Of a stretch of DNA of 64,000 nucleotides, positions 13,401 through 23,274 are shown one piece after another. The stretch's first letter is position 1. Each line of letters begins with the position of its first letter. Origin of the DNA: Escherichia phage vB_EcoM-Ro121c4YLVW. The translations under genes and the position numbers were made by a program. Location of the stretch: the sequence record NC_052654.1; one strand, 5' to 3'. Below the pieces are notes generated by a model. That model had not been told where the DNA came from. It ran no database searches and worked only from the letters and a program-made list of their open reading frames with translations.

Positions 13401-13964
13401 ATGATTTATTATATTACTCCCTATCTGACAGGAAATATCGGCAAGGCTATCAATGAAGCTATTGCCGTTCTTCCAGATGATAGTTGGGTGTGCTTAAGAG
13501 ATACCGATACAATGTTCCTCCTGCCTGATCAACCATCTATGCTTGAAGAGCTTGTTATGTCAAACCCGCCTTTTGATGTAATAGGTGCAACTTGTAACAG
13601 GTTAGGTAGTGGTTATCAGCTTTTCTCTAACCAAATTAACGATGATCCAGATATTCTAAACCATATAGAATATGCTAAGATTGCAAGAGAATATCATAAA
13701 GTGAGTGTTGAAGAAGTTCCTTTCGGAACACCTCTGGCAGGTTTCTTTTTGCTTTTTAGAAAATCATTGTGGAATGAAATTCCTTTCGAAGAAAAATCTA
13801 TCCAATTCGACCTAATTTTCTCTCGCACTTTACATGAAAAAGGAAAGAGGTTAGGATTGATGCGGGGAATGTATCTGTTTCACATTTACAGATTAGGTCA
13901 AACAAATCCTCAACGGTCTATACATCATTTATTACACTGTCACGATCACAGTAAAACTATCTAG
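13401..13964 (+). CDS. putative GT-A fold glycosyltransferase
   Basis: N-terminal beta-strand YYITPY followed by D-x-D-like LRDTDTMF; weak. Confidence 0.45.
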   Translation: MIYYITPYLTGNIGKAINEAIAVLPDDSWVCLRDTDTMFLLPDQPSMLEELVMSNPPFDVIGATCNRLGSGYQLFSNQINDDPDILNHIEYAKIAREYHKVSVEEVPFGTPLAGFFLLFRKSLWNEIPFEEKSIQFDLIFSRTLHEKGKRLGLMRGMYLFHIYRLGQTNPQRSIHHLLHCHDHSKTI

Positions 13965-13972
13965 GAGAGAAA

Positions 13973-14656
13973 ATGGAAAATATTAAAATCGGAGTGGGTG
14001 TTATCACTGTAGGTGTCCGTCCACTTAAAGACTATCTTGTAACAGATCCACATGCAGATTTTCGAGTATTCAACGATCCAGATCGTAAAGGTGTAGCTTA
14101 CGCCAGGAATGAACTTATGCACCAGTTTTATGAAGAAGGTTATGATTATTGGTTTATTTTTGACGACGATTGCTACCCAATCATGGAGGGATGGGAAACA
14201 TATTTTGTAGATCAAGCTGTCTCTGGAAGATGGGATTTCTTTGGTATGCCGGAGTATTTCAAAGATAAAGTTGTTGGGAGTAAAGGAGAAGTTATTCTCT
14301 GGGAACTTGCAATGTGTCAATTTGCAATGTATTCTCGTGCCGTTGTTGAGAAGATGGGTTATTTCCGCCCTTACACTCACGGCTATGGTTTTGAAGATGC
14401 TGAATGGGTACACCGTTTGAAAGCTGCTGGTTTGAATCAGGGTATTCAGGCAATACCTTGTCCACTTCGTATCATGGCTTATATCCACCCAGACGATGTT
14501 TTTGGAAACAATCCTATGCCTTTTGCTAATCTGACAAAAGAAGAGAAAGAAGCTGCTATTGGCATTAACTGGGAAGAATATAAAGCGTCTTTAGAAGATA
14601 TTAAAAATGGGAAAATCCGAATTTCTTATGAGGAGGCACTGGCACATGTCAAATAA
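13973..14656 (+). CDS. glycosyltransferase, GT-A fold (family 2-like)
   Basis: DxD motif FIFDDDCYP and downstream GFEDAEW; RBS AGGAGAG. Confidence 0.65.
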   Translation: MENIKIGVGVITVGVRPLKDYLVTDPHADFRVFNDPDRKGVAYARNELMHQFYEEGYDYWFIFDDDCYPIMEGWETYFVDQAVSGRWDFFGMPEYFKDKVVGSKGEVILWELAMCQFAMYSRAVVEKMGYFRPYTHGYGFEDAEWVHRLKAAGLNQGIQAIPCPLRIMAYIHPDDVFGNNPMPFANLTKEEKEAAIGINWEEYKASLEDIKNGKIRISYEEALAHVK

Positions 14657-15593
14657 AAAATGGACTAAACTGAAAATTGATGCAAAACCTCACAGTGGTT
14701 GTGATTATCATCGTATTGTTATACCATTTAACAACAATAATTTTCAGCCTAAGAAAGATGTTGTCGTGTTTAACCGTATTCATTCTAAAGGTGCAGAATA
14801 CGTTTTATCTTTGAAACGTCAAGGTGTTAAGATTGTTGTAGATTTAGATGATTTCTACCAACTTAATCCAGAACATTATTTAGCAAGTCTATACGAGTCA
14901 AACACTCATGCTATTGTAGCTATGGTTAAGCTTGCTGATGTGGTTATTGTGACTACGGAATATTTAGCATATAAGATCCGTCACTTAAATAGGAATGTTG
15001 TTGTGATCCGAAATGCACTTCCTTTTGATAGCGGACAATTCACTTTGTCAAATGATCGTTCATCCGGTACCCCTGTTGTATGGGCTGGCGGTGCTAGTCA
15101 CGAACCAGACTTACGACTAGTCTCTAATACTTTCGATGATGAACTTCTTACTATTGCGGGATATGAAGCATCACAAAGCATCACGGGACAAGAGTGGATT
15201 AAGATTCGCAGAAATTTACCAAATGCCAAATATAAAGCCGCCGTAAAAGATTTAGATAATTACATGAGTGTTTACGAAAGTCATGCTATTGCTATAGCTC
15301 CTTTGGTAGATAATGATTTTAATAATTGTAAAAGTAATCTCAAAATCCTGGAAGCTGGAGCAAAAGGTATTCCGATTGTTTGTTCTAAGGTATTACCTTA
15401 TTTTAACCCTGTAGATGCTCGCGCTGTTGCTTACGCAGAGAATAAAGCAGAATGGCATTACGAAATTGTTAAGCTTCTTCGCAATCCAAACTATCGGGAA
15501 GATCGTGGCTTGTTCTTGGCTGAACATGTTCGAACACATTATAATCTGGCAGATGCAAACGAGTTGCGACGCCAGGTTATTGAAAGTTTGTAG
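14646..15593 (+). CDS. glycosyltransferase, GT-B fold (GT4-like), paralog 1
   Basis: C-terminal KSNLKILEAGAKGIPIVCS resembles the GT-B E-x7-E region; ATG 14646 follows AGGAGG; paralogous to the next gene. Confidence 0.65.
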   Translation: MSNKKWTKLKIDAKPHSGCDYHRIVIPFNNNNFQPKKDVVVFNRIHSKGAEYVLSLKRQGVKIVVDLDDFYQLNPEHYLASLYESNTHAIVAMVKLADVVIVTTEYLAYKIRHLNRNVVVIRNALPFDSGQFTLSNDRSSGTPVVWAGGASHEPDLRLVSNTFDDELLTIAGYEASQSITGQEWIKIRRNLPNAKYKAAVKDLDNYMSVYESHAIAIAPLVDNDFNNCKSNLKILEAGAKGIPIVCSKVLPYFNPVDARAVAYAENKAEWHYEIVKLLRNPNYREDRGLFLAEHVRTHYNLADANELRRQVIESL

Positions 15594-15600
15594 GTGAAGT

Positions 15601-16545
15601 ATGGGACAAATAATTCTTGACAATCGTAACGGAATCAATTATAGTGTCTGCGATTTCCATAGGGTAGTGCTGCCTTACTCAAGGCAGTTCTCTTCACAAC
15701 CTAAACACAACGTTTTCGTTTTTAACGGAGTGCCAACAAAAGGTAAAGAGGGCTTTTTAGCCCTTAAAAACCTGGGCTTTAAAATGGTTATGGATTTGGA
15801 TGACTCTTTAGTTATTCCAAAAGGACACATGTTAGAAGGTATTTTTGAATCAGGTATTCGTGAACATTTAAAATGGTTTTTAGAGCACAGTGATCTTGTT
15901 ACAACTACGACACCTGCCTTGCAAGTTGAACTTTCACAATACAATGATAATGTGCACATAATCCCTAATGGACTTCCTTATGATGAAGGTCAATTTGTGT
16001 TGACCCGTGATCGCTACTCCAAAACTCCATTAGTCTGGGCTGGAAGTGAAACACATAAACAAGATTTGGCTATCTTGCCCGATTTTGGTAAAGATCTTAC
16101 AATATGTGGTTTTCGTAGGGATTCTGAAGTTTTAAGTAGTCGTGAATGGTCTGTAATTAGAGAAAATGTAGCACCAACTAGTGTTTATGAAGGTGTAAGA
16201 CCATATGCCAACTACATGGAATCTTACGATGGTCATCAAATCAGTCTTGCACCATTGGTCGATAACGTGTTTAATAATGCAAAAAGCAATCTTAAAATTC
16301 TTGAGGCAGGTGCTAAGGGTTTACCTTTAATCTGCTCTCCTCGTGAGAATTATCATACGCAAGAGTTTAAAGATTTGTTATTCTTTGCTGAAACACTTTC
16401 CGAGTGGAAAGATATTACGGAATACTTATTAAGTGCTCCCGATGTTTGCATGGAGAAAGGATTAGCATTAGCTAAGTATGTCAGGACTCATTATCACATT
16501 GATGTGTTGAATGAGCGTCGTAGACTTTTATTTGAGGAGCTATAA
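15601..16545 (+). CDS. glycosyltransferase, GT-B fold (GT4-like), paralog 2
   Basis: KSNLKILEAGAKGLPLICS and overall co-linear similarity to 14646..15593. Confidence 0.65.
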   Translation: MGQIILDNRNGINYSVCDFHRVVLPYSRQFSSQPKHNVFVFNGVPTKGKEGFLALKNLGFKMVMDLDDSLVIPKGHMLEGIFESGIREHLKWFLEHSDLVTTTTPALQVELSQYNDNVHIIPNGLPYDEGQFVLTRDRYSKTPLVWAGSETHKQDLAILPDFGKDLTICGFRRDSEVLSSREWSVIRENVAPTSVYEGVRPYANYMESYDGHQISLAPLVDNVFNNAKSNLKILEAGAKGLPLICSPRENYHTQEFKDLLFFAETLSEWKDITEYLLSAPDVCMEKGLALAKYVRTHYHIDVLNERRRLLFEEL

Positions 16546-16835: not shown

Positions 16836-18614
16836 GTGTCGCACATTATAACTAAATATGGATTTGATGTTGATCTTAGCAAGGAAGGGCATACAGGTTG
16901 TCCGCGCTGCATGAAAAATGGCAAGGATCGCTCTCGTAATAACCTGATGGTTTATGGATTAGATTCTAATGGAGAGCATAAAGGTGCTAAGTGCTTTGCG
17001 TGTGAATACACTATTCCTAGCGTAGAATGGTTACGAGAAAATGGTGAAGTTTTAGAAGAAGAGGAGGAGATTGTGGGTTCGGAATTTAATAAACAGATTC
17101 ATCGTAAAATTGTTCAAGAAACATCAACCAACCCACGTGGTTATCGAGGCATTAAAGAAAAAGTTTCATCTTTCTATGGTGTTCGTTATGAATACCGTCA
17201 GGAAGGGGATCAGATGGTAGTAGAAAGTTGTTTATATCCGACTACCATCGGTAAAGAATTGGTTGGTTTTAAGCGTCGTATTCATCCTAAAGATTTCAGT
17301 AAACCTATTGGTCAAGTAGGTAAAGATGTAGATCTTTTTGGACAAATTCGTTTTGCAGACCGTTCTCATACTGTGGTAATTACAGGTGGTGAACACGATG
17401 CTCTGGCAGCTTATCAAATGCTGTCTGAAAACTTGGACAACAAATATGAACTTCCAGCAGTAGTTAGTGGCACAACTGGTGAAACCAGTATGTATAAACA
17501 AGTTCAGGCACAATATCCTTTCTTTGAAAAATTTAAGAAGATTATTGTTTGCATGGATAATGACAAAGCAGGTAATGAGGCATTTGAAAATATTGTTAAG
17601 GTGCTACCTCGTAACAAAGTCTACCGTATGCAGATGGATCTTAAGGATGCCAATCAGTATCTGGAAGAAGGTCGTGCAAAGGATTTCGTAAAGGCTTTTT
17701 GGAGTGCTCGTCTATACACCCCAGCAGGTGTTTATGCTTCTAATGTCTTGTATGAAGCTGCATTAGAATGCTTGGAATCCAAGATGATTACCTTGCCTCC
17801 TTTTATGCGTGTTGCTGCAAATATGCTGGGTGGTGGTTTAGTAGAGGAAGAGATTACAGTCATCCTAGCAAAGACCAGTATCGGTAAAACTTTGATGGTG
17901 AACGAGATCACCAAACATATTATTGTTGCGCACCCAGAACATACCCTAGGTATTCTGTCATTGGAAGCAACTTATAAGAAATATTCTCGTAACCTGTTGT
18001 CCTCGTTCCTGCATATTCCTCTACATAGGAAAACACCGGAAGAGAAATTTCAAATCTTGGAAGAGAATAAAGAAAAAATCCTAGATTTTTACGAAAGAGA
18101 AGATGGATCACCACGTTTTTATGTGTGTGATGATCGTGGAGCAGATGTGGAGTCTATCAAAGAAAAAGTTTTGGAGATGATCATCTATTTTGGAGTAACA
18201 ATTCTTGTTATCGACCCTTATTCTGATTTGCTTTCTGGTATGGATGTTCAAGCCCAAGAAGAGTTAGCAACATGGTTGAAGCGTATCATGAAAGAGTATG
18301 CTATAACTATTATCGTCATCTCACACGTTAAGAAATCGGCTAATGGTGGCAATGAACACTTAACAGAGGACGATGCAATGGGTAGTAGTTTCTTGGCTAA
18401 AGGTGCTGGTATTACCTTGGCTTTGGAACGAGATAAAGCCGCTGAAGACCCTGTAGAACGCAATACGACTCATTGCTTTATCCTAAAAAACCGTGAGTTC
18501 TCGGAGACTGGTCCGGCAGGGCAGTTTTACTATGACATTAGAACTGCAACTCTGCATGACAAAGAGCAGTATTTCAACAACCCTGCTAATTTGCCTACGG
18601 ATAGCAACTATTAA
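16836..18614 (+). CDS. bifunctional DNA primase-helicase (T7 gp4-like)
   Basis: N-terminal Zn ribbon CPRC...CFAC; TOPRIM-like VVITGGEHDA...CMDNDKAGNEA; helicase Walker A AKTSIGKT and Walker B-like VLVIDPYSD. Confidence 0.9.
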   Translation: MSHIITKYGFDVDLSKEGHTGCPRCMKNGKDRSRNNLMVYGLDSNGEHKGAKCFACEYTIPSVEWLRENGEVLEEEEEIVGSEFNKQIHRKIVQETSTNPRGYRGIKEKVSSFYGVRYEYRQEGDQMVVESCLYPTTIGKELVGFKRRIHPKDFSKPIGQVGKDVDLFGQIRFADRSHTVVITGGEHDALAAYQMLSENLDNKYELPAVVSGTTGETSMYKQVQAQYPFFEKFKKIIVCMDNDKAGNEAFENIVKVLPRNKVYRMQMDLKDANQYLEEGRAKDFVKAFWSARLYTPAGVYASNVLYEAALECLESKMITLPPFMRVAANMLGGGLVEEEITVILAKTSIGKTLMVNEITKHIIVAHPEHTLGILSLEATYKKYSRNLLSSFLHIPLHRKTPEEKFQILEENKEKILDFYEREDGSPRFYVCDDRGADVESIKEKVLEMIIYFGVTILVIDPYSDLLSGMDVQAQEELATWLKRIMKEYAITIIVISHVKKSANGGNEHLTEDDAMGSSFLAKGAGITLALERDKAAEDPVERNTTHCFILKNREFSETGPAGQFYYDIRTATLHDKEQYFNNPANLPTDSNY

Positions 18615-18644: not shown

Positions 18645-18673
18645 TTGACAACTTTGCGGAAGGGACTTATACT
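18645..18673 (+). promoter_or_regulatory. strong sigma70-like promoter candidate (TTGACA, 17 nt, TATACT)
   Basis: Near-consensus -35 and -10 hexamers in intergenic DNA just upstream of the gene at 18707. Confidence 0.6.
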
Positions 18674-18706: not shown

Positions 18707-19138
18707 ATGCGTATGACAATCGATTTGAATGCAAAAGTTAAAGCTGCTGGTGCTCTGGGTGCTGGTGTTATTAAACACAAACAAGCGTTGGCATTTGCCA
18801 TCCCACATATGATTGTTGAGGATCATCCTGAAGAGTTTGCTGTAAAAGTTGTTGAGAACAATGTTTCTGTTATTGAACATATCCCAACTGGACGTTCTTA
18901 CCGTGTTGTTTCTTCTAAAGGTTTCCGTTTCGATGTAAGCCCTTCTTTCACAAAAGGTGCTGGTCGTAGTAAAGTGGGTATTCTTTCTTACAAATATTAT
19001 ATCGATAAAGTTGCAGATGGTGTTGCATTCTGTCGTGTAAGTGAAGGTAAAGTAGATATCATCTTTAAAAATACTAAAAACATGGTTATTTCTGATGATG
19101 GTAAAGTTGACCTCACTATTGAGTTCGCTAACAACTAA
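18707..19138 (+). CDS. hypothetical protein, probably highly expressed
   Basis: Strong RBS AGAGGAGAAG; codon usage biased to GGT, CGT, GTT, CTG like the capsid and SSB genes; no recognisable domain. Confidence 0.6.
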   Translation: MRMTIDLNAKVKAAGALGAGVIKHKQALAFAIPHMIVEDHPEEFAVKVVENNVSVIEHIPTGRSYRVVSSKGFRFDVSPSFTKGAGRSKVGILSYKYYIDKVADGVAFCRVSEGKVDIIFKNTKNMVISDDGKVDLTIEFANN

Positions 19139-19147
19139 GGAGGACTA

Positions 19148-19942
19148 TTGAGCAAGTTGAACACACTTGATCAATATTACACTAACCCCGCTTATGCGGG
19201 GTTCTTATGTGATAAGATCAAAGAAATTTTTGGAGAGGAAGCTAACTACGTAGAACCATCTGCGGGAGAAGGAGCTTTCTCTTCTTGTTTTAAAAACATA
19301 ACTTCTTTTGATATTGACCCTAAGTTTGAAGATTGTATTGAGGCAGATTTTTTAGCTCAATCTGTTGAGTCTGTTGGTAGCGTAACTGCTTTTGTCGGTA
19401 ATCCTCCATTTGGAAAAAATGCTAGTCTTGCCATTAAATTCTTTAACCATTGTGCTGAAATGCTGGATAACGAAGGTGGTATTTGTTTTATCTTGCCTCG
19501 CACATTTCAAAAAATCTTTTTTGCACACAAACTAAATCCCCATATGCATCTTCTTTACGAAGAAGAATGTCCAAAAGGATCTTTTATTCTTCATGGAGAA
19601 CCTTGGGATGTTCCTTGTGTATTCCAGGTATGGATTAAACGCAACGAGAAGCGTTCTCCCGTTGTTTTAGGAGAGAATCGACTATTCGTATTAGGTAACA
19701 GTAAAGACTACGATATAGCTGTTAGGAGAGCGGGAGCAAGTGCAGGTAGAGTGTTATCAGAAGAAGATTCTTTATCTGAAGCATCTACCTATTTTTTAAA
19801 AGCCTTGACTTCTGATCTTAAAACGCGTATCATTGAGGCTTACCCGTTACTTAAAGCTGAAGCTAGTAAAACTGCGGGAGTAAGAAGTTTAAGTTTAAAA
19901 GAACTTCAGTGGGTTCTGGAGAACATTAGAAAGGAGGAATAG
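19148..19942 (+). CDS. N6-adenine DNA methyltransferase (orphan; gamma-class motif order)
   Basis: Motif I EPSAGEGAF precedes motif IV GNPPFG; TTG start after AAGGAGG. No restriction endonuclease gene is adjacent. Confidence 0.75.
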   Translation: MSKLNTLDQYYTNPAYAGFLCDKIKEIFGEEANYVEPSAGEGAFSSCFKNITSFDIDPKFEDCIEADFLAQSVESVGSVTAFVGNPPFGKNASLAIKFFNHCAEMLDNEGGICFILPRTFQKIFFAHKLNPHMHLLYEEECPKGSFILHGEPWDVPCVFQVWIKRNEKRSPVVLGENRLFVLGNSKDYDIAVRRAGASAGRVLSEEDSLSEASTYFLKALTSDLKTRIIEAYPLLKAEASKTAGVRSLSLKELQWVLENIRKEE

Positions 19943-22900
19943 TGAGTAAGTTTACATGGGATATTGAAGCAAACGGATTGTTGAATAATGACACTATTGA
20001 TTATTTAGCTAGTCCTTATCGTCTCAAAGACACATTTCAAATGCACTGTATTGTCTTAGAGAACCATGAAACAGGAGAAATAGTAGCTTTCCACGATGGC
20101 CCTAAATACATCTTTGATGGGCGTCCTTATGAAGAGTCAGATGGTAAATACACATATGTTCTTAAAGAGTATGTGGCGCAAGATTACACACATTTTCAAC
20201 TAAAAGATTTCCCAGACTTTATTAATCATGAAGGTTATTTTAAAGATAAGCCTGAATATCTGGTTGAAATGGCTGTGGCTCACAACGGTATCAACTACGA
20301 CTGGTTGGCTACAAAACTGTTTTATGGATTAGATTACAGTGTTAAATATAATACGTGGGGCAAAAATAAGGTAAAACTTATTGACTCCTTGATTTTGAGT
20401 AAAGTGTTAAACCCAGATCGAAAGATTGAGGGCAAATCAGGACATAGCTTGGCAGCACTTTCTCGAAAAGCAGGTGGTGATGTAAAAATAGATTTCCGTA
20501 AAGAGATTCCAGAAGAAGATCGATTTAAGACTTTTGCTGCGGATATGCTTTATTACTGTATCTATGACAACAAAGCCAATACGAGCGTATATAATTACCT
20601 TATGGAAGAATGGGGCGATTATGATAAATGGGAAGGTCCATTTGAACTTGAACAACGTGTAGCAGACATTATTACACGCCAGGAACACCGTGGGTTTGCT
20701 TTTAACATGAAGCAAGCAGAAGAGAACCTTGCTTTTTTGGATGCAGAAATGGAGCGTCTTCGTTTACTCGTTGAGCCTATTTTGCCACCTAAACCAGCAA
20801 CAAAAGGTTATCTTAAGGCTTTTATTCCACCTAAGTTGCAAATTAAAAAGAACTTAGAGCCAACTAACCATATGATCAATTTTGCTAAGAAACATGATGG
20901 TCATTTGGAAGAGAGGGATGGCGATTGGTGGTTAGTTATGTTGGGGAAAGAGTGGAAACTGCCAGTTGCAGCAGATGAGCCTCTATGTGATCCTAACATC
21001 CCTGCAACATTGAACGATACAACCCATATTAAAAACTGGCTCGTAGGATTAGGTTGGGTACCGTCTGAATATAAAGATAAAGACTTGACGCTTAAATCTG
21101 GCACCAAAATTAAAAAGAGCGAGGAAGAACTTCAGAAAGGTATTAGAGCTTACGTTGAGCAAACTCTATCTTCTAATTTTTGTCAGGATCGTTGTGATCA
21201 TCTGGAGTGCACACCGGAAACTTTGGAAAGGAAGATTCAAGAGCGTATAGCAAAAGGTAAAGGTCGCGGTCTTAAAGTATTGACTAACCCATGTTTTACC
21301 AAAGGTCAGGAAAAAGAAATTTGTCCTAACCTGCAAGCTTTGGGTGAGAAATTTCCTTATGCTACACAGATTGTAGAATACTTAACGTATAAGCATCGTA
21401 GGAACTCTATTTTAGGTGGCGGTGCTGATTGGGAAGAAGATGAAGAAGATCAAGAATACGATAAAGGTTTCTTAGCCGCAGTAAGGGCGGATGGGCGTAT
21501 TCCTACACCAGCCGCTACATGTGATGCTGCAACCTCTCGTATGAAACATAGATCTGTAGCTAATATTCCTCGTGTCACATCTTTGTTTGGATGGGAGATG
21601 CGTAACTTGTTTGGTGTAGAAGTTCCTAAATACTTCCAGATCGGTTATGACTTCGACTCTTTGGAAGCAAAGATTGAGTCGCATTACTGTGTGCCGATGG
21701 ATGCTCAAGCTTTGACTCGTAAAGGTTGGGTAGGATATCACGACCTGAAGGAAGGGGATGAGATTTTAGGGTACAATGCTGAAACAGGTATGAAAGAATG
21801 GACTAAAGTAAAAGGTAAGGTCTTCTATAAAAATAGTAAGACGTTTGAGATTAAAGGGAAATCACACACTTACCGTGCAACAGCAGATCACCGTTGGTAT
21901 GTTAATACCCGTAGTAAAGGGAATACTTATGTGCCTAAAGTCAGAACAACTGCCGAGCTTTGCACAGGAGATAATATTATTTGTAATGCTCCATTTAACA
22001 TGGAACAAGATCAGGTAAATAGTTTAACTTCTGTTCAACAAGGTAAATGGGATGTTCCGTGGGTAGAGCGTGTAGTTAATATGTCTCATGCCGAGCGTGT
22101 AGCTTTCTTGGAAGGTTTCTTGATTGCAGATGGTTACTGGCATGAACATAAACAAAAACCTGTTTGGCGTTGGGCGCAGAACCCAGGTGAACTTTTTGAA
22201 GCAGCTTTAACTGCCTCGTACCTGGTGCATGGAGGCAATATCTCTGTAGCTTTCAATACAAAAGAGCAGAAAGTAAAAGTGGCAACATTGACTAACCGCT
22301 CTCACATTCCTGTTCAAAGTTTGACTATTGAAGAGTGGGGTGTAGAGGATGTTTGGTGTCCACAAACAGAACTTGGTACGTGGGTCATGCGTCAGAAAGA
22401 CTGCATTACCATCACAGGAAACTGTTGGCGCTACGAACCGGAGCCTCATGAATACTGTAACGCTCTCTTGTTAGAGAAGCCTAACGATGTTCATACCATG
22501 ATGGCAAAACGTATTACAGATACTATTGGGCGTAAATTTGAACGTAGTCCGGCGAAATCTGTTAAATACGGGATCACTTATGGTGCACAAGCAGACAAGG
22601 TTGCTAAAACAATTGGTAGCGATAAATACACAGGGCAACTGGTGTTCGATGCTTTCTGGGAAGCTGCATTCCCACTGGCGCGTCTTAAAGAACGTTTAAA
22701 CGATTTCTGGGTTAAGACTGGTAAACAGTATGTTTTGGGTATTGACGGTCGTAAGGTTCCTACTCGTTCTGCTCACGCGATTCTTAACTCTCTGTTCCAA
22801 AGTGGTGGGGTTATCTGTGCTAAACGTGCAATGGTTATTTATGACGACATGATCGAAGAAGAAGGGCTAAGTGTTGACTTCTTTAAAGATGACTGGAAGA

Positions 22901-23274
22901 ATAAAGACTTCGTGCAACAAATGATTGCATATCACGATGAAGCCCAGCTTGAAGTTTCTCGTAACCTTGTAGAATTTAAATGGTTTTCACCTGAATCATT
23001 AGGTTGGAAGAAAGTAGACGATCCTGAAGAACAAAAGAAAATTGATAAAGAATGCCTTGCTAAAGTTGAAGAATGGAAACATAATAAGGAAAAAGAGACA
23101 GGGCAAATTTGGGCTAACATTCATGAATCTCCCAAAGGTGGATGGTTTACAGCCTATAGTCGGGCAGGTGAACTTGCTGCTTTAGCTGTTACTAAGGCTG
23201 GAGAATTTTACAATCTTAATGTTCAGCTTACTGCCGGATATGATGTGGGTAACTCCTGGGCGTCCTGTCACTAG
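19942..23274 (+). CDS. family A DNA polymerase with 3'-5' exonuclease domain, interrupted by an intein
   Basis: Exo I motif WDIEANGL; motif A region GYDFDSLEAKIESHY; motif B RSPAKSVKYGITYGA; about 245 extra residues lie between motifs A and B. Confidence 0.9.
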   Translation: MSKFTWDIEANGLLNNDTIDYLASPYRLKDTFQMHCIVLENHETGEIVAFHDGPKYIFDGRPYEESDGKYTYVLKEYVAQDYTHFQLKDFPDFINHEGYFKDKPEYLVEMAVAHNGINYDWLATKLFYGLDYSVKYNTWGKNKVKLIDSLILSKVLNPDRKIEGKSGHSLAALSRKAGGDVKIDFRKEIPEEDRFKTFAADMLYYCIYDNKANTSVYNYLMEEWGDYDKWEGPFELEQRVADIITRQEHRGFAFNMKQAEENLAFLDAEMERLRLLVEPILPPKPATKGYLKAFIPPKLQIKKNLEPTNHMINFAKKHDGHLEERDGDWWLVMLGKEWKLPVAADEPLCDPNIPATLNDTTHIKNWLVGLGWVPSEYKDKDLTLKSGTKIKKSEEELQKGIRAYVEQTLSSNFCQDRCDHLECTPETLERKIQERIAKGKGRGLKVLTNPCFTKGQEKEICPNLQALGEKFPYATQIVEYLTYKHRRNSILGGGADWEEDEEDQEYDKGFLAAVRADGRIPTPAATCDAATSRMKHRSVANIPRVTSLFGWEMRNLFGVEVPKYFQIGYDFDSLEAKIESHYCVPMDAQALTRKGWVGYHDLKEGDEILGYNAETGMKEWTKVKGKVFYKNSKTFEIKGKSHTYRATADHRWYVNTRSKGNTYVPKVRTTAELCTGDNIICNAPFNMEQDQVNSLTSVQQGKWDVPWVERVVNMSHAERVAFLEGFLIADGYWHEHKQKPVWRWAQNPGELFEAALTASYLVHGGNISVAFNTKEQKVKVATLTNRSHIPVQSLTIEEWGVEDVWCPQTELGTWVMRQKDCITITGNCWRYEPEPHEYCNALLLEKPNDVHTMMAKRITDTIGRKFERSPAKSVKYGITYGAQADKVAKTIGSDKYTGQLVFDAFWEAAFPLARLKERLNDFWVKTGKQYVLGIDGRKVPTRSAHAILNSLFQSGGVICAKRAMVIYDDMIEEEGLSVDFFKDDWKNKDFVQQMIAYHDEAQLEVSRNLVEFKWFSPESLGWKKVDDPEEQKKIDKECLAKVEEWKHNKEKETGQIWANIHESPKGGWFTAYSRAGELAALAVTKAGEFYNLNVQLTAGYDVGNSWASCH
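21688..22422 (+). mobile_element. intein (Hint domain with LAGLIDADG-like segment) inside the DNA polymerase gene
   Basis: Starts with Cys (CVPMDA, block A-like), TADH block B-like, LEGFLIADGYW endonuclease-like motif, ends ...ITITGN followed by +1 Cys. Flanking extein resumes in the T7-like GDIHT-equivalent region (NDVHT). Confidence 0.7.

What the first reader, a model, noticed from the sequence alone, without database searches (positions are those of the whole stretch)
19148..19942. Orphan N6-adenine DNA methyltransferase between primase-helicase and polymerase
Motif I (EPSAGEGAF) and motif IV (NPPF) are present and no cognate endonuclease is nearby. This likely self-methylates the phage genome for anti-restriction or replication control.
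Basis: partly seen in the sequence, partly recalled or inferred. Interest (0 to 1): 0.4.

Follow-up and report, generated by a model that had tools for sequence, protein, structure and literature searches.

The report
Phage adenine methylase with nuclease-like partner
The gene is a real DNA adenine methyltransferase already labelled as such in public phage genomes, but it is not truly alone: the small unannotated gene beside it is a diverged relative of restriction enzymes, so the pair looks like a remodelled restriction-modification cassette carried by a lytic E. coli phage.

Summary
The ORF, both motifs and its position were confirmed. The window is a phAPEC8/ESCO5-type coliphage (Phapecoctavirus), and GenBank already labels this gene "putative DNA N6-adenine methyltransferase".

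That label had a thin basis: Pfam is sub-threshold, NCBIfam gives nothing, and the nearest solved sequences are the rRNA enzymes Ta1320/METTL5. Three results here support a DNA substrate:
- The high-confidence model aligns almost full-length with M.TaqI, M.BseCI, MmeI and CamA.
- REBASE-derived type II methyltransferase models match at E=1e-35.
- In bacteria, phages and giant-virus MAGs, homologues sit beside genes of two recognised type II restriction-enzyme families.

"Orphan" is only partly right. The 143-aa ORF just upstream (18707-19138, "hypothetical" everywhere) is predicted to have a restriction-endonuclease fold and is distantly homologous to one of those partner families. It stays adjacent to the methyltransferase in five phage groups with otherwise different neighbours. 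Its canonical catalytic residues are replaced, so activity is unresolved.

Broad anti-restriction is unlikely: rV5-like relatives carrying the cassette are highly RM-sensitive, and the window avoids several restriction sites. The target sequence and the role in replication control remain untested.

The parts
18645..18673 (+). Sigma-70-like promoter (TTGACA-17 nt-TATACT, 11 of 12 matches) in the 93-nt gap after the primase/helicase. It is the likely start of the transcription unit 143-aa ORF, methyltransferase, DNA polymerase.
   Evidence: This is a consensus match only. The overall number of promoter-like sites in the region is not above shuffled expectation.
18707..19138 (+). 143-aa ORF, annotated 'hypothetical protein' / phrog_9938. 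It is a predicted PD-(D/E)xK restriction-endonuclease-fold protein and the conserved partner of the methyltransferase. The canonical catalytic positions are replaced (P33, N52, Y65-R66-V67-V68). The family-specific conserved residues are D76, P79, S80, T82, K83, G84, G86 and R87.
   Evidence: - The AF2 model has pLDDT 83 and pTM 0.79.
- The ORF is adjacent to the MTase in five phage groups.
- Homology to the REase family PDLC03550 rests on the iterated HMM, hhalign E=8.2e-5, and an intermediate sequence, P0215, hit at library-wide E=5.4e-4.
19139..19144 (+). Shine-Dalgarno sequence GGAGGA serving the methyltransferase start codon.
   Evidence: Read directly from the sequence.
19148..19942 (+). 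Methyltransferase ORF, 264 aa. It is a gamma-class SAM-dependent N6-adenine DNA methyltransferase of the compact 'Mtase_EDM2'-type family. It is the orthologue of ESCO5 gp218.
19166..19183 (+). N-terminal conserved motif LDQYYT (aa 7-12; D8 and T12 invariant). It occupies the position of motif X, which precedes motif I in gamma-class amino-methyltransferases.
   Evidence: The alignment is. The equivalence to motif X is my inference from the known gamma-class motif order.
19253..19279 (+). Motif I, EPSAGEGAF (aa 36-44), the SAM-binding glycine loop.
   Evidence: It aligns with motif I of Ta1320, METTL5 and M.TaqI.
19400..19411 (+). Motif IV, NPPF (aa 85-88), the catalytic pocket for the target amino group.
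19643..19939 (+). C-terminal ~100-aa domain (aa 166-264) with family-wide conserved R193-R194-x-G196...G200 and T-A-G244-V-R-S247. It is the candidate target-recognition module.
   Evidence: - Conservation is shown.
- DNA MTases (M.BseCI, MmeI, M.TaqI, CamA) align over 222-249 residues, whereas RNA MTases align over only ~150.
- Its function is inferred.
19942..23274 (+). Family A DNA polymerase (context). Its GTG start overlaps the methyltransferase stop codon, which suggests translational coupling.

Best explanation
ORF 19148-19942 encodes an active, sequence-specific, SAM-dependent DNA adenine-N6 methyltransferase of the gamma class (motif I before NPPF, small C-terminal recognition domain).

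It descends from type II restriction-modification cassettes. In this phage lineage it is still inherited as a two-gene unit with a diverged restriction-endonuclease-fold protein (18707-19138). [quoted passage not shown]

During replication the enzyme flips a target adenine into the NPPF pocket and methylates one short recognition sequence on phage DNA. This protects the phage from the particular restriction-enzyme families that pair with this methyltransferase family in bacteria and in other viruses. The protection is narrow, not broad.

Shown here: the fold, the motifs, the family membership, the linkage to REase genes, and co-inheritance of the cassette.
Inferred: catalytic activity, DNA as the in vivo substrate, the protective role, and everything about the partner's activity.
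For: Methyltransferase identity:
- The motifs are invariant across 69 homologues.
- The AF2 model is high confidence (pLDDT 94.4).
- The top Foldseek hits are M.TaqI, M.BseCI and CamA.
- The PADLOC type II MTase model PDLC03255 matches at E=1.1e-35 over aa 21-254.

Linkage to restriction enzymes:
- Homologues are patchy in cellular genomes: 280 stretches in 185,579 species genomes.
- They lie next to an REase_II (PDLC03460) gene in 23 of 78 cellular and 16 of 80 viral loci.
- Others lie next to an REase_II (PDLC03550) family.
- The RM-linked enzymes are collinear with the phage enzyme, including the C-terminal motifs.

Cassette inheritance and expression:
- Cassette members form an exclusive MTase clade and stay adjacent in different genomic contexts.
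- A promoter and overlapping or tightly spaced genes support co-expression.
Against: - No methylation data exist for any Phapecoctavirus.
- The Pfam family carried by homologues, Mtase_EDM2, is named after a plant protein linked in the literature to RNA m6A (PMC10871907).
- rV5-like relatives with the orthologous cassette are very RM-sensitive.
- The window avoids GTAC and several 6-mer sites, so any protection must be narrow.
- The recognition sequence could not be inferred.
Confidence: 0.62

Rival explanations
1. The cassette is a complete, active restriction-modification system carried by the phage. The 143-aa protein is a working endonuclease with a remodelled active site (for example E37/D38, E56, K/R66 or D76, K83). 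It cuts unmethylated host or competitor-phage DNA while the methyltransferase protects the phage genome.
For: - The partner has an REase fold and is homologous to a recognised type II REase family.
- Adjacency is strict: 33 hits in 33 loci, 32 of them within 18 nt of the MTase gene.
- The pair is co-inherited.
- The subfamily keeps its own invariant residues (D76, P79, T82, K83, G84, R87) and conserved acidic residues at the end of helix alpha-1 and of the second strand.
- Active-site rearrangement is known within the PD-(D/E)xK superfamily (established knowledge).
Against: - All canonical positions are replaced in every member of the subfamily: E to P/Y, and (D/E)-x-K to (K/R)-V-(V/W/T).
- The window copy has R where the subfamily has K66.
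- No PADLOC REase model matches it.
- There is no report of host DNA degradation in this phage group (none found).
Confidence: 0.18
2. The methyltransferase is functionally solitary. The 143-aa protein is a catalytically dead nuclease retained for a non-nucleolytic role, such as site-specific DNA binding that regulates or targets the methyltransferase, or shielding or decoying of the cognate restriction enzyme.
For: - The canonical catalytic residues are lost, yet the protein is strongly conserved: at least 99% identical in 61 Phapecoctavirus records, and retained at 23-30% identity across distant phages.
- The conserved PS..G.GR loop is shared with the active-looking sister family.
Against: There is no direct evidence for DNA binding or for interaction with the methyltransferase. 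No precedent was located in the searched literature.
Confidence: 0.3
3. The enzyme methylates RNA (rRNA, tRNA or phage/host transcripts) at adenine N6, like METTL5/Ta1320 or as proposed for plant EDM2, rather than DNA.
For: - The best PDB sequence matches are Ta1320 and METTL5.
- JGI names some homologues 'predicted RNA methylase'.
- Homologues carry PF26055 Mtase_EDM2, and EDM2 is linked to an m6A RNA pathway in rice (PMC10871907).
Against: - RNA MTases align only with the Rossmann core.
- The distribution is patchy and typical of mobile elements, not of housekeeping genes.
- Homologues are repeatedly and tightly linked to two type II REase families in several orientations.
- REBASE-derived type II MTase models match almost the full length.
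Confidence: 0.06
4. The methylation serves replication or gene-expression control (a Dam/CcrM-like epigenetic role) rather than defence evasion.
For: In this genus the gene lies between the primase/helicase and the polymerase and is translationally coupled to the polymerase.
Against: - In rV5-like phages and three other phage groups the cassette lies away from replication genes.
- The family's ancestry is in R-M cassettes.
- There is no evidence of clustered target sites, because the motif is unknown.
Confidence: 0.1

Closest known systems
M.TaqI / M.BseCI / CamA (gamma-class type II DNA adenine-N6 methyltransferases)
   Same: - Both have the class I SAM-methyltransferase fold, with motif I (E-P-x-x-G-x-G-x-F) ahead of N-P-P-(Y/F).
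- These are the top Foldseek hits.
- Members of the query's family are paired with restriction enzymes.
   Different: - The query is only 264 aa, versus 421-580 aa.
- Its C-terminal domain is ~100 aa, versus a ~180-aa TRD in M.TaqI.
- Sequence similarity is marginal (E=0.33).
- Pfam Eco57I/N6_Mtase models are below threshold.
METTL5 / Ta1320 / PH1948 (rRNA m6A methyltransferases)
   Same: - They share the NPPF catalytic motif and the N-terminal helix motif.
   Different: - They align with the ~150-aa core only.
- They have no C-terminal domain.
- They are housekeeping genes with a TRMT112 partner, whereas the query's family is patchy, virus-rich and linked to REases.
Plant EDM2 methyltransferase-like (ELP) domain, Pfam PF26055 Mtase_EDM2
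   Same: Many homologues at 40-53% identity carry this Pfam family.
   Different: - EDM2 is a large nuclear PHD-finger chromatin regulator (PMC7529245).
- The model is absent from the local Pfam copy, so the window protein itself could not be scored.
Virus-encoded type II R-M systems (for example chlorovirus R.Cvi/M.Cvi pairs; from my own knowledge)
   Same: Many viral loci, including giant-virus MAGs, carry this methyltransferase family next to an REase gene with canonical motifs.
   Different: In the window's lineage the nuclease-like partner has lost the canonical catalytic residues. No nuclease activity is known.
Phage orphan DNA methyltransferases (T4/T2/P1 Dam and similar; reviewed by Murphy et al. 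2013, cited in PMC12210895)
   Same: Both are carried by lytic phages, with no active-looking REase, and have a presumed role in self-protection.
   Different: - Dam-type enzymes are alpha-class (DPPY, Pfam MethyltransfD12), and no such match is found here.
- The query retains a nuclease-derived neighbour.

Membership tests
Gamma-class type II DNA N6-adenine methyltransferase | Class I SAM-dependent methyltransferase (Rossmann) fold | tested here: met
   [not shown]
Gamma-class type II DNA N6-adenine methyltransferase | Motif order: SAM-binding motif I upstream of catalytic (N/D)PP(Y/F), with the recognition domain C-terminal | tested here: met
   EPSAGEGAF is at aa 36-44, NPPF at aa 85-88, and a conserved C-terminal domain at aa 166-264.
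Gamma-class type II DNA N6-adenine methyltransferase | Significant match to curated or REBASE-derived type II MTase models | tested here: met
   PADLOC MTase_II PDLC03255 matches at 1.1e-35 (aa 21-254 against 15-250 of 269), and PDLC03256 at 7e-28. However, Pfam Eco57I scores only 15.6 bits against a cutoff of 25.3, and NCBIfam gives nothing.
Gamma-class type II DNA N6-adenine methyltransferase | Family members genetically linked to a cognate restriction endonuclease | tested here: met
   23 of 78 cellular and 16 of 80 viral loci have an adjacent PDLC03460-type REase. A further 19 viral loci have a PDLC03550-type REase.
Gamma-class type II DNA N6-adenine methyltransferase | Demonstrated m6A formation at a defined DNA sequence | not testable with these tools
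   No methylome or biochemical data were found.
Orphan (solitary) phage methyltransferase | No restriction-endonuclease gene adjacent or nearby | tested here: inconclusive
   No REase model matches any of 30 window ORFs. However, the adjacent 143-aa ORF has an REase fold and REase-family homology while lacking the canonical catalytic residues.
Complete type II restriction-modification system | Partner protein with the PD-(D/E)xK fold | tested here: met
   [not shown]
Complete type II restriction-modification system | Partner retains the catalytic E...D...(D/E)xK residues | tested here: not met
   The window subfamily has P/Y, N/D/G and (K/R)-V-(V/W/T) at positions where 13-15 of 16 sister-group sequences have E, D and (D/E)-x-K.
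METTL5/Ta1320-type rRNA m6A methyltransferase | Core fold and NPPF motif | tested here: met
METTL5/Ta1320-type rRNA m6A methyltransferase | Single-domain ~200-aa architecture and housekeeping (near-universal, vertically inherited) distribution | tested here: not met
   The query has an extra conserved C-terminal domain. Only 280 stretches were found in 185,579 species genomes, and the family is abundant in viral contigs.
Pfam PF26055 Mtase_EDM2 | Score above the family's gathering threshold | not testable with these tools
   The model is not in the local Pfam copy: homologues that carry it as a precomputed annotation gave no such hit locally. The window protein's own cluster shows no precomputed Pfam family (P0001).
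Dam-type (alpha-class) methyltransferase, Pfam MethyltransfD12 | DPPY motif and a match to PF02086 | tested here: not met
   There is no such Pfam hit at E<=0.1, and the motif is NPPF in gamma order.

The most novel reading that the evidence does not exclude
rV5-like, phAPEC8-like and several uncultured lytic phages carry a domesticated restriction-modification cassette. Its nuclease gene has been remodelled rather than lost, and the 143-aa protein is a functional partner of the methyltransferase. There are two possible forms:
- It is an endonuclease with a migrated active site. The phage would then wield its own R-M system against host or rival-phage DNA.
- It is a catalytically dead, site-specific DNA binder that shields or decoys the cognate restriction enzyme until methylation is complete. 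That would be an anti-restriction mechanism not described so far.
Probability: 0.3. Interest if true: 0.65.

Novelty: new variant of a known kind. Interest (0 to 1): 0.45.

Why it matters
The methyltransferase alone is ordinary and already annotated. Three things are new.
- The annotation now has a real basis. Linkage to restriction enzymes shows a DNA substrate, even though the nearest solved relatives are rRNA enzymes.
- A "hypothetical protein" conserved in widely used coliphage groups (rV5-like phages, which are in the BASEL collection, and phAPEC8-like therapy candidates) turns out to be a restriction-enzyme relative locked to the methyltransferase.
- The compact methyltransferase family links two unnamed type II REase families, giant-virus genomes and the plant EDM2 domain.

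If the partner is active or acts as a shield, it would bear on host range and on phage-phage competition in therapy-relevant phages. The system is directly testable with standard cloning and methylome sequencing.

Tried and rejected
Searches that gave nothing useful:
- Pfam and NCBIfam gave no usable assignment for the methyltransferase. Pfam Eco57I was sub-threshold and NCBIfam returned nothing.
- A single-sequence PDB search was uninformative.
- I tried to name the partner restriction enzymes, and hence the recognition site, through NCBIfam, Pfam, PDB sequence profiles and PLSDB plasmids. None returned a result.
- I searched for 'PF26055' in the literature and found nothing. The family name came from the look-up of encoding contigs instead.
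- Literature searches for methylome or restriction data on Phapecoctavirus, Stephanstirmvirinae and rV5 found no experimental data. The rV5 genome paper mentions neither methylation nor restriction.

Hypotheses tested and rejected:
- The 143-aa family is not detectably related to the ~210-aa A2-type REase family (hhalign probability 0.1%).
- I considered non-specific adenine methylation. This is unlikely because rV5-like relatives remain sensitive to EcoRI and EcoRV. It is an inference for relatives, not for this phage.

Limits of the analyses:
- Palindrome statistics show which sites are avoided but cannot identify the methylated site.
- A third ~220-aa neighbour family in 7 viral loci matched no REase model and was not pursued.

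Full report
**What is at the coordinates**

Window 19148-19942 (+) is a 264-aa ORF. It has a TTG start 3 nt after a GGAGGA Shine-Dalgarno sequence, and its TAG stop overlaps the GTG start of the next gene. Upstream are a T7-gp4-type primase/helicase (16836-18614) and a 143-aa ORF (18707-19138). Downstream is a family A DNA polymerase (19942-23274).

The window is 98-99% identical to phAPEC8/ESCO5-type E. coli myophages of about 150 kb (genus Phapecoctavirus, Stephanstirmvirinae). In many of those records the gene is already annotated "putative DNA N6-adenine methyltransferase". In others it is "hypothetical protein".

**How well founded that label is**

Standard evidence is thin.
- Pfam gives only a sub-threshold Eco57I match (15.6 bits against a cutoff of 25.3).
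- NCBIfam gives nothing.
- The best PHROG (5172, E=7e-110) has unknown function.
- A profile of 69 homologues finds the archaeal Ta1320 protein (E=6.9e-5) and human METTL5, an rRNA m6A methyltransferase (E=0.002), ahead of M.TaqI (E=0.33).
- JGI calls some homologues "predicted RNA methylase".
- Homologues carry Pfam PF26055, which is Mtase_EDM2. This is the methyltransferase-like domain of a plant chromatin regulator (PMC7529245) that has been linked to an RNA m6A pathway in rice (PMC10871907).

DNA versus RNA was therefore an open question.

**Evidence that it is a DNA methyltransferase**

- Conservation. The family is strongly conserved, with invariant D8, T12, E36-P37-x-A39-G40-x-G42, D55, N85-P86-P87-x-G89, and C-terminal R194, G196, G200, G244 and S247.
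- Family models. REBASE-derived PADLOC models for type II methyltransferases match almost the full length (PDLC03255, E=1.1e-35, aa 21-254).
- Distribution. It is patchy, with 280 stretches in 185,579 species genomes, but the family is abundant in viral contigs, including giant-virus MAGs (454 stretches). That pattern does not fit a housekeeping RNA enzyme.
- Gene neighbourhood, which is the decisive evidence. A ~200-225-aa gene lies immediately next to the methyltransferase in 23 of 78 cellular loci and 16 of 80 viral loci, across Campylobacterota, Alpha- and Gammaproteobacteria and Verrucomicrobiota. All 13 tested members match the PADLOC type II restriction-enzyme model PDLC03460 (best E=5e-15).
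- The RM-linked methyltransferases are collinear with the phage enzyme over the whole length and keep its C-terminal motifs.

**The neighbour changes the "orphan" reading**

The 143-aa ORF 9 nt upstream (phrog_9938, "hypothetical protein" in every record) has a homologue directly upstream of the methyltransferase in an unrelated phage contig (E=2e-11).

Adjacency:
- The pair is adjacent in five phage groups: this genus, rV5-like phages (gene order swapped), and three uncultured groups.
- In the other four groups no primase/helicase or polymerase lies within 5 kb.

Fold and family:
- An iterated HMM over every six-frame ORF of about 160 methyltransferase loci finds 33 family members in 33 loci. 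Of these, 32 lie within 18 nt of the methyltransferase gene. The arrangements are upstream co-directional, downstream co-directional and convergent.
- The larger sister group (150-163 aa, in phages and giant-virus MAGs) matches the ~160-aa PADLOC type II REase model PDLC03550 (E=7e-6 to 7.5e-13).

Independent support for the homology:
- hhalign between the two groups gives E=8.2e-5, probability 61%, over 112 columns.
- An exhaustive search of 1.84 billion proteins with the window-type profile finds only 29 clusters. One of them, P0215, scores a library-wide E=5.4e-4. It has the canonical helix Glu and an E-x-K strand together with a hybrid loop.
- Methyltransferases with the window-type partner form an exclusive clade, so the cassette is inherited as a unit.

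**Is the partner an active nuclease?**

This is unresolved.
- In the sister group, 13-15 of 16 sequences carry the canonical set: helix E, strand D, strand Y-(D/E)-x-K.
- All members of the window subfamily have P or Y, N/D/G, and Y-(K/R)-V-(V/W/T) at those positions. The window copy has P33, N52 and Y65-R66-V67-V68.
- Both groups share an invariant P79-S80...G84-x-G86-R87 loop and F120.
- The subfamily has its own conserved D76, T82 and K83. It also keeps acidic residues at the end of helix alpha-1 (E37/D38) and of the second strand (E56).
- This fits either a dead nuclease kept for another role or a re-wired active site.
- No REase model hits the protein directly, and none hits any other non-structural ORF of the window.

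**Biological role**

- A strong sigma-70-like promoter (11 of 12 matches) lies in the gap before the 143-aa ORF. The three genes are tightly packed, so they are probably co-expressed with the polymerase.
- Broad anti-restriction is unlikely. [quoted passage not shown] BASEL's rV5-like phages carry the 52-54%-identical methyltransferase.
- A 2026 preprint notes that Phapecoctavirus itself is not in BASEL, so this inference comes from relatives.
- The window shows strong site avoidance. GTAC occurs 56 times against 204 expected. CTGCAG, CAGCTG, GGATCC and CCATGG are absent although 9-16 copies of each are expected. A phage that relies on avoidance in this way is unlikely to carry a blanket modification.
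- The most economical reading is narrow protection of one specific site, against the REase families that partner this methyltransferase family.
- Nothing supports a role in replication control beyond gene position in this one genus.

**Verdict**

As a gene it is already known. The new element is that it forms a conserved cassette with a diverged restriction-endonuclease homologue, which qualifies "orphan" and gives a concrete, testable question.

My confidence that the enzyme is a DNA m6A methyltransferase is about 0.8. My confidence in the full best explanation is about 0.6.

Noticed in passing
window 21688-22422 (+), inside the DNA polymerase ORF: There is a 245-aa intein-like insert just after polymerase motif A (…DFDSLEAKIESHY|C…). 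It starts with Cys, ends …ITGN|C, and contains a LAGLIDADG-like 'FLEGFLIADGY'. PDB matches to VMA and RecA inteins are only weak (E=0.05-0.2), and there is no Pfam hit. It is present at >=90% identity in 33 phage records. Other Phapecoctavirus genomes (nieznany, nepoznato) carry a 32%-identical insert at the same place.
   Followed up: partly
window 13401-16545 (+): Four consecutive genes annotated as glycosyltransferases in ESCO5 (gp211-214) lie directly upstream of the primase/helicase. Their substrate (DNA, host surface or other) is unknown.
   Followed up: no
whole window (1-64000): Restriction-site avoidance is marked. GTAC has O/E 0.27 (z=-10.4), GGCC 0.45, CCGG 0.49 and CTAG 0.55. CTGCAG, CAGCTG, GGATCC and CCATGG are absent although 9-16 copies of each are expected. 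GATC, TGCA, AGCT, TTAA and ATAT are not avoided.
   Followed up: partly
window 113-25835 (+), exact ORFs not identified: Among 30 non-structural ORFs, PADLOC reports one AbiEi-like hit (4.7e-13), one DarG-like macrodomain hit (4.3e-10) and one mad8-like hit (2.8e-5). These are possible counter-defence or toxin-antitoxin-related genes.
   Followed up: no
L002 4701-9404 (Poseidonibacter ostreae WFKJ01000010.1): The bacterial M-R pair of this family sits directly after a type I HsdM/HsdS pair and among IS elements. This looks like a small defence island.
   Followed up: partly
Viral loci L105, L109, L111, L115, L120-L125, L130, L133 and others (IMG/VR 'GVMAG' contigs): The methyltransferase family, often with a canonical-motif REase partner, is common in giant-virus metagenome-assembled genomes. 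Homologues also carry the Pfam family named after plant EDM2. This hints at a virus-eukaryote connection for this domain.
   Followed up: partly
L119 1217-1879, L135 5808-6491, L145, L154, L159, L162: A third recurring neighbour family (~190-265 aa) lies next to the methyltransferase in 7 viral loci. It matches no REase model and is unexplained.
   Followed up: partly
L087 79-2075 (Logan ERR13719026 contig): Another phage that carries the same cassette also encodes a Dam-type (MethyltransfD12) and a C5-cytosine (DNA_methylase) methyltransferase a few kb upstream. So some carriers stack several methyltransferases.
   Followed up: no
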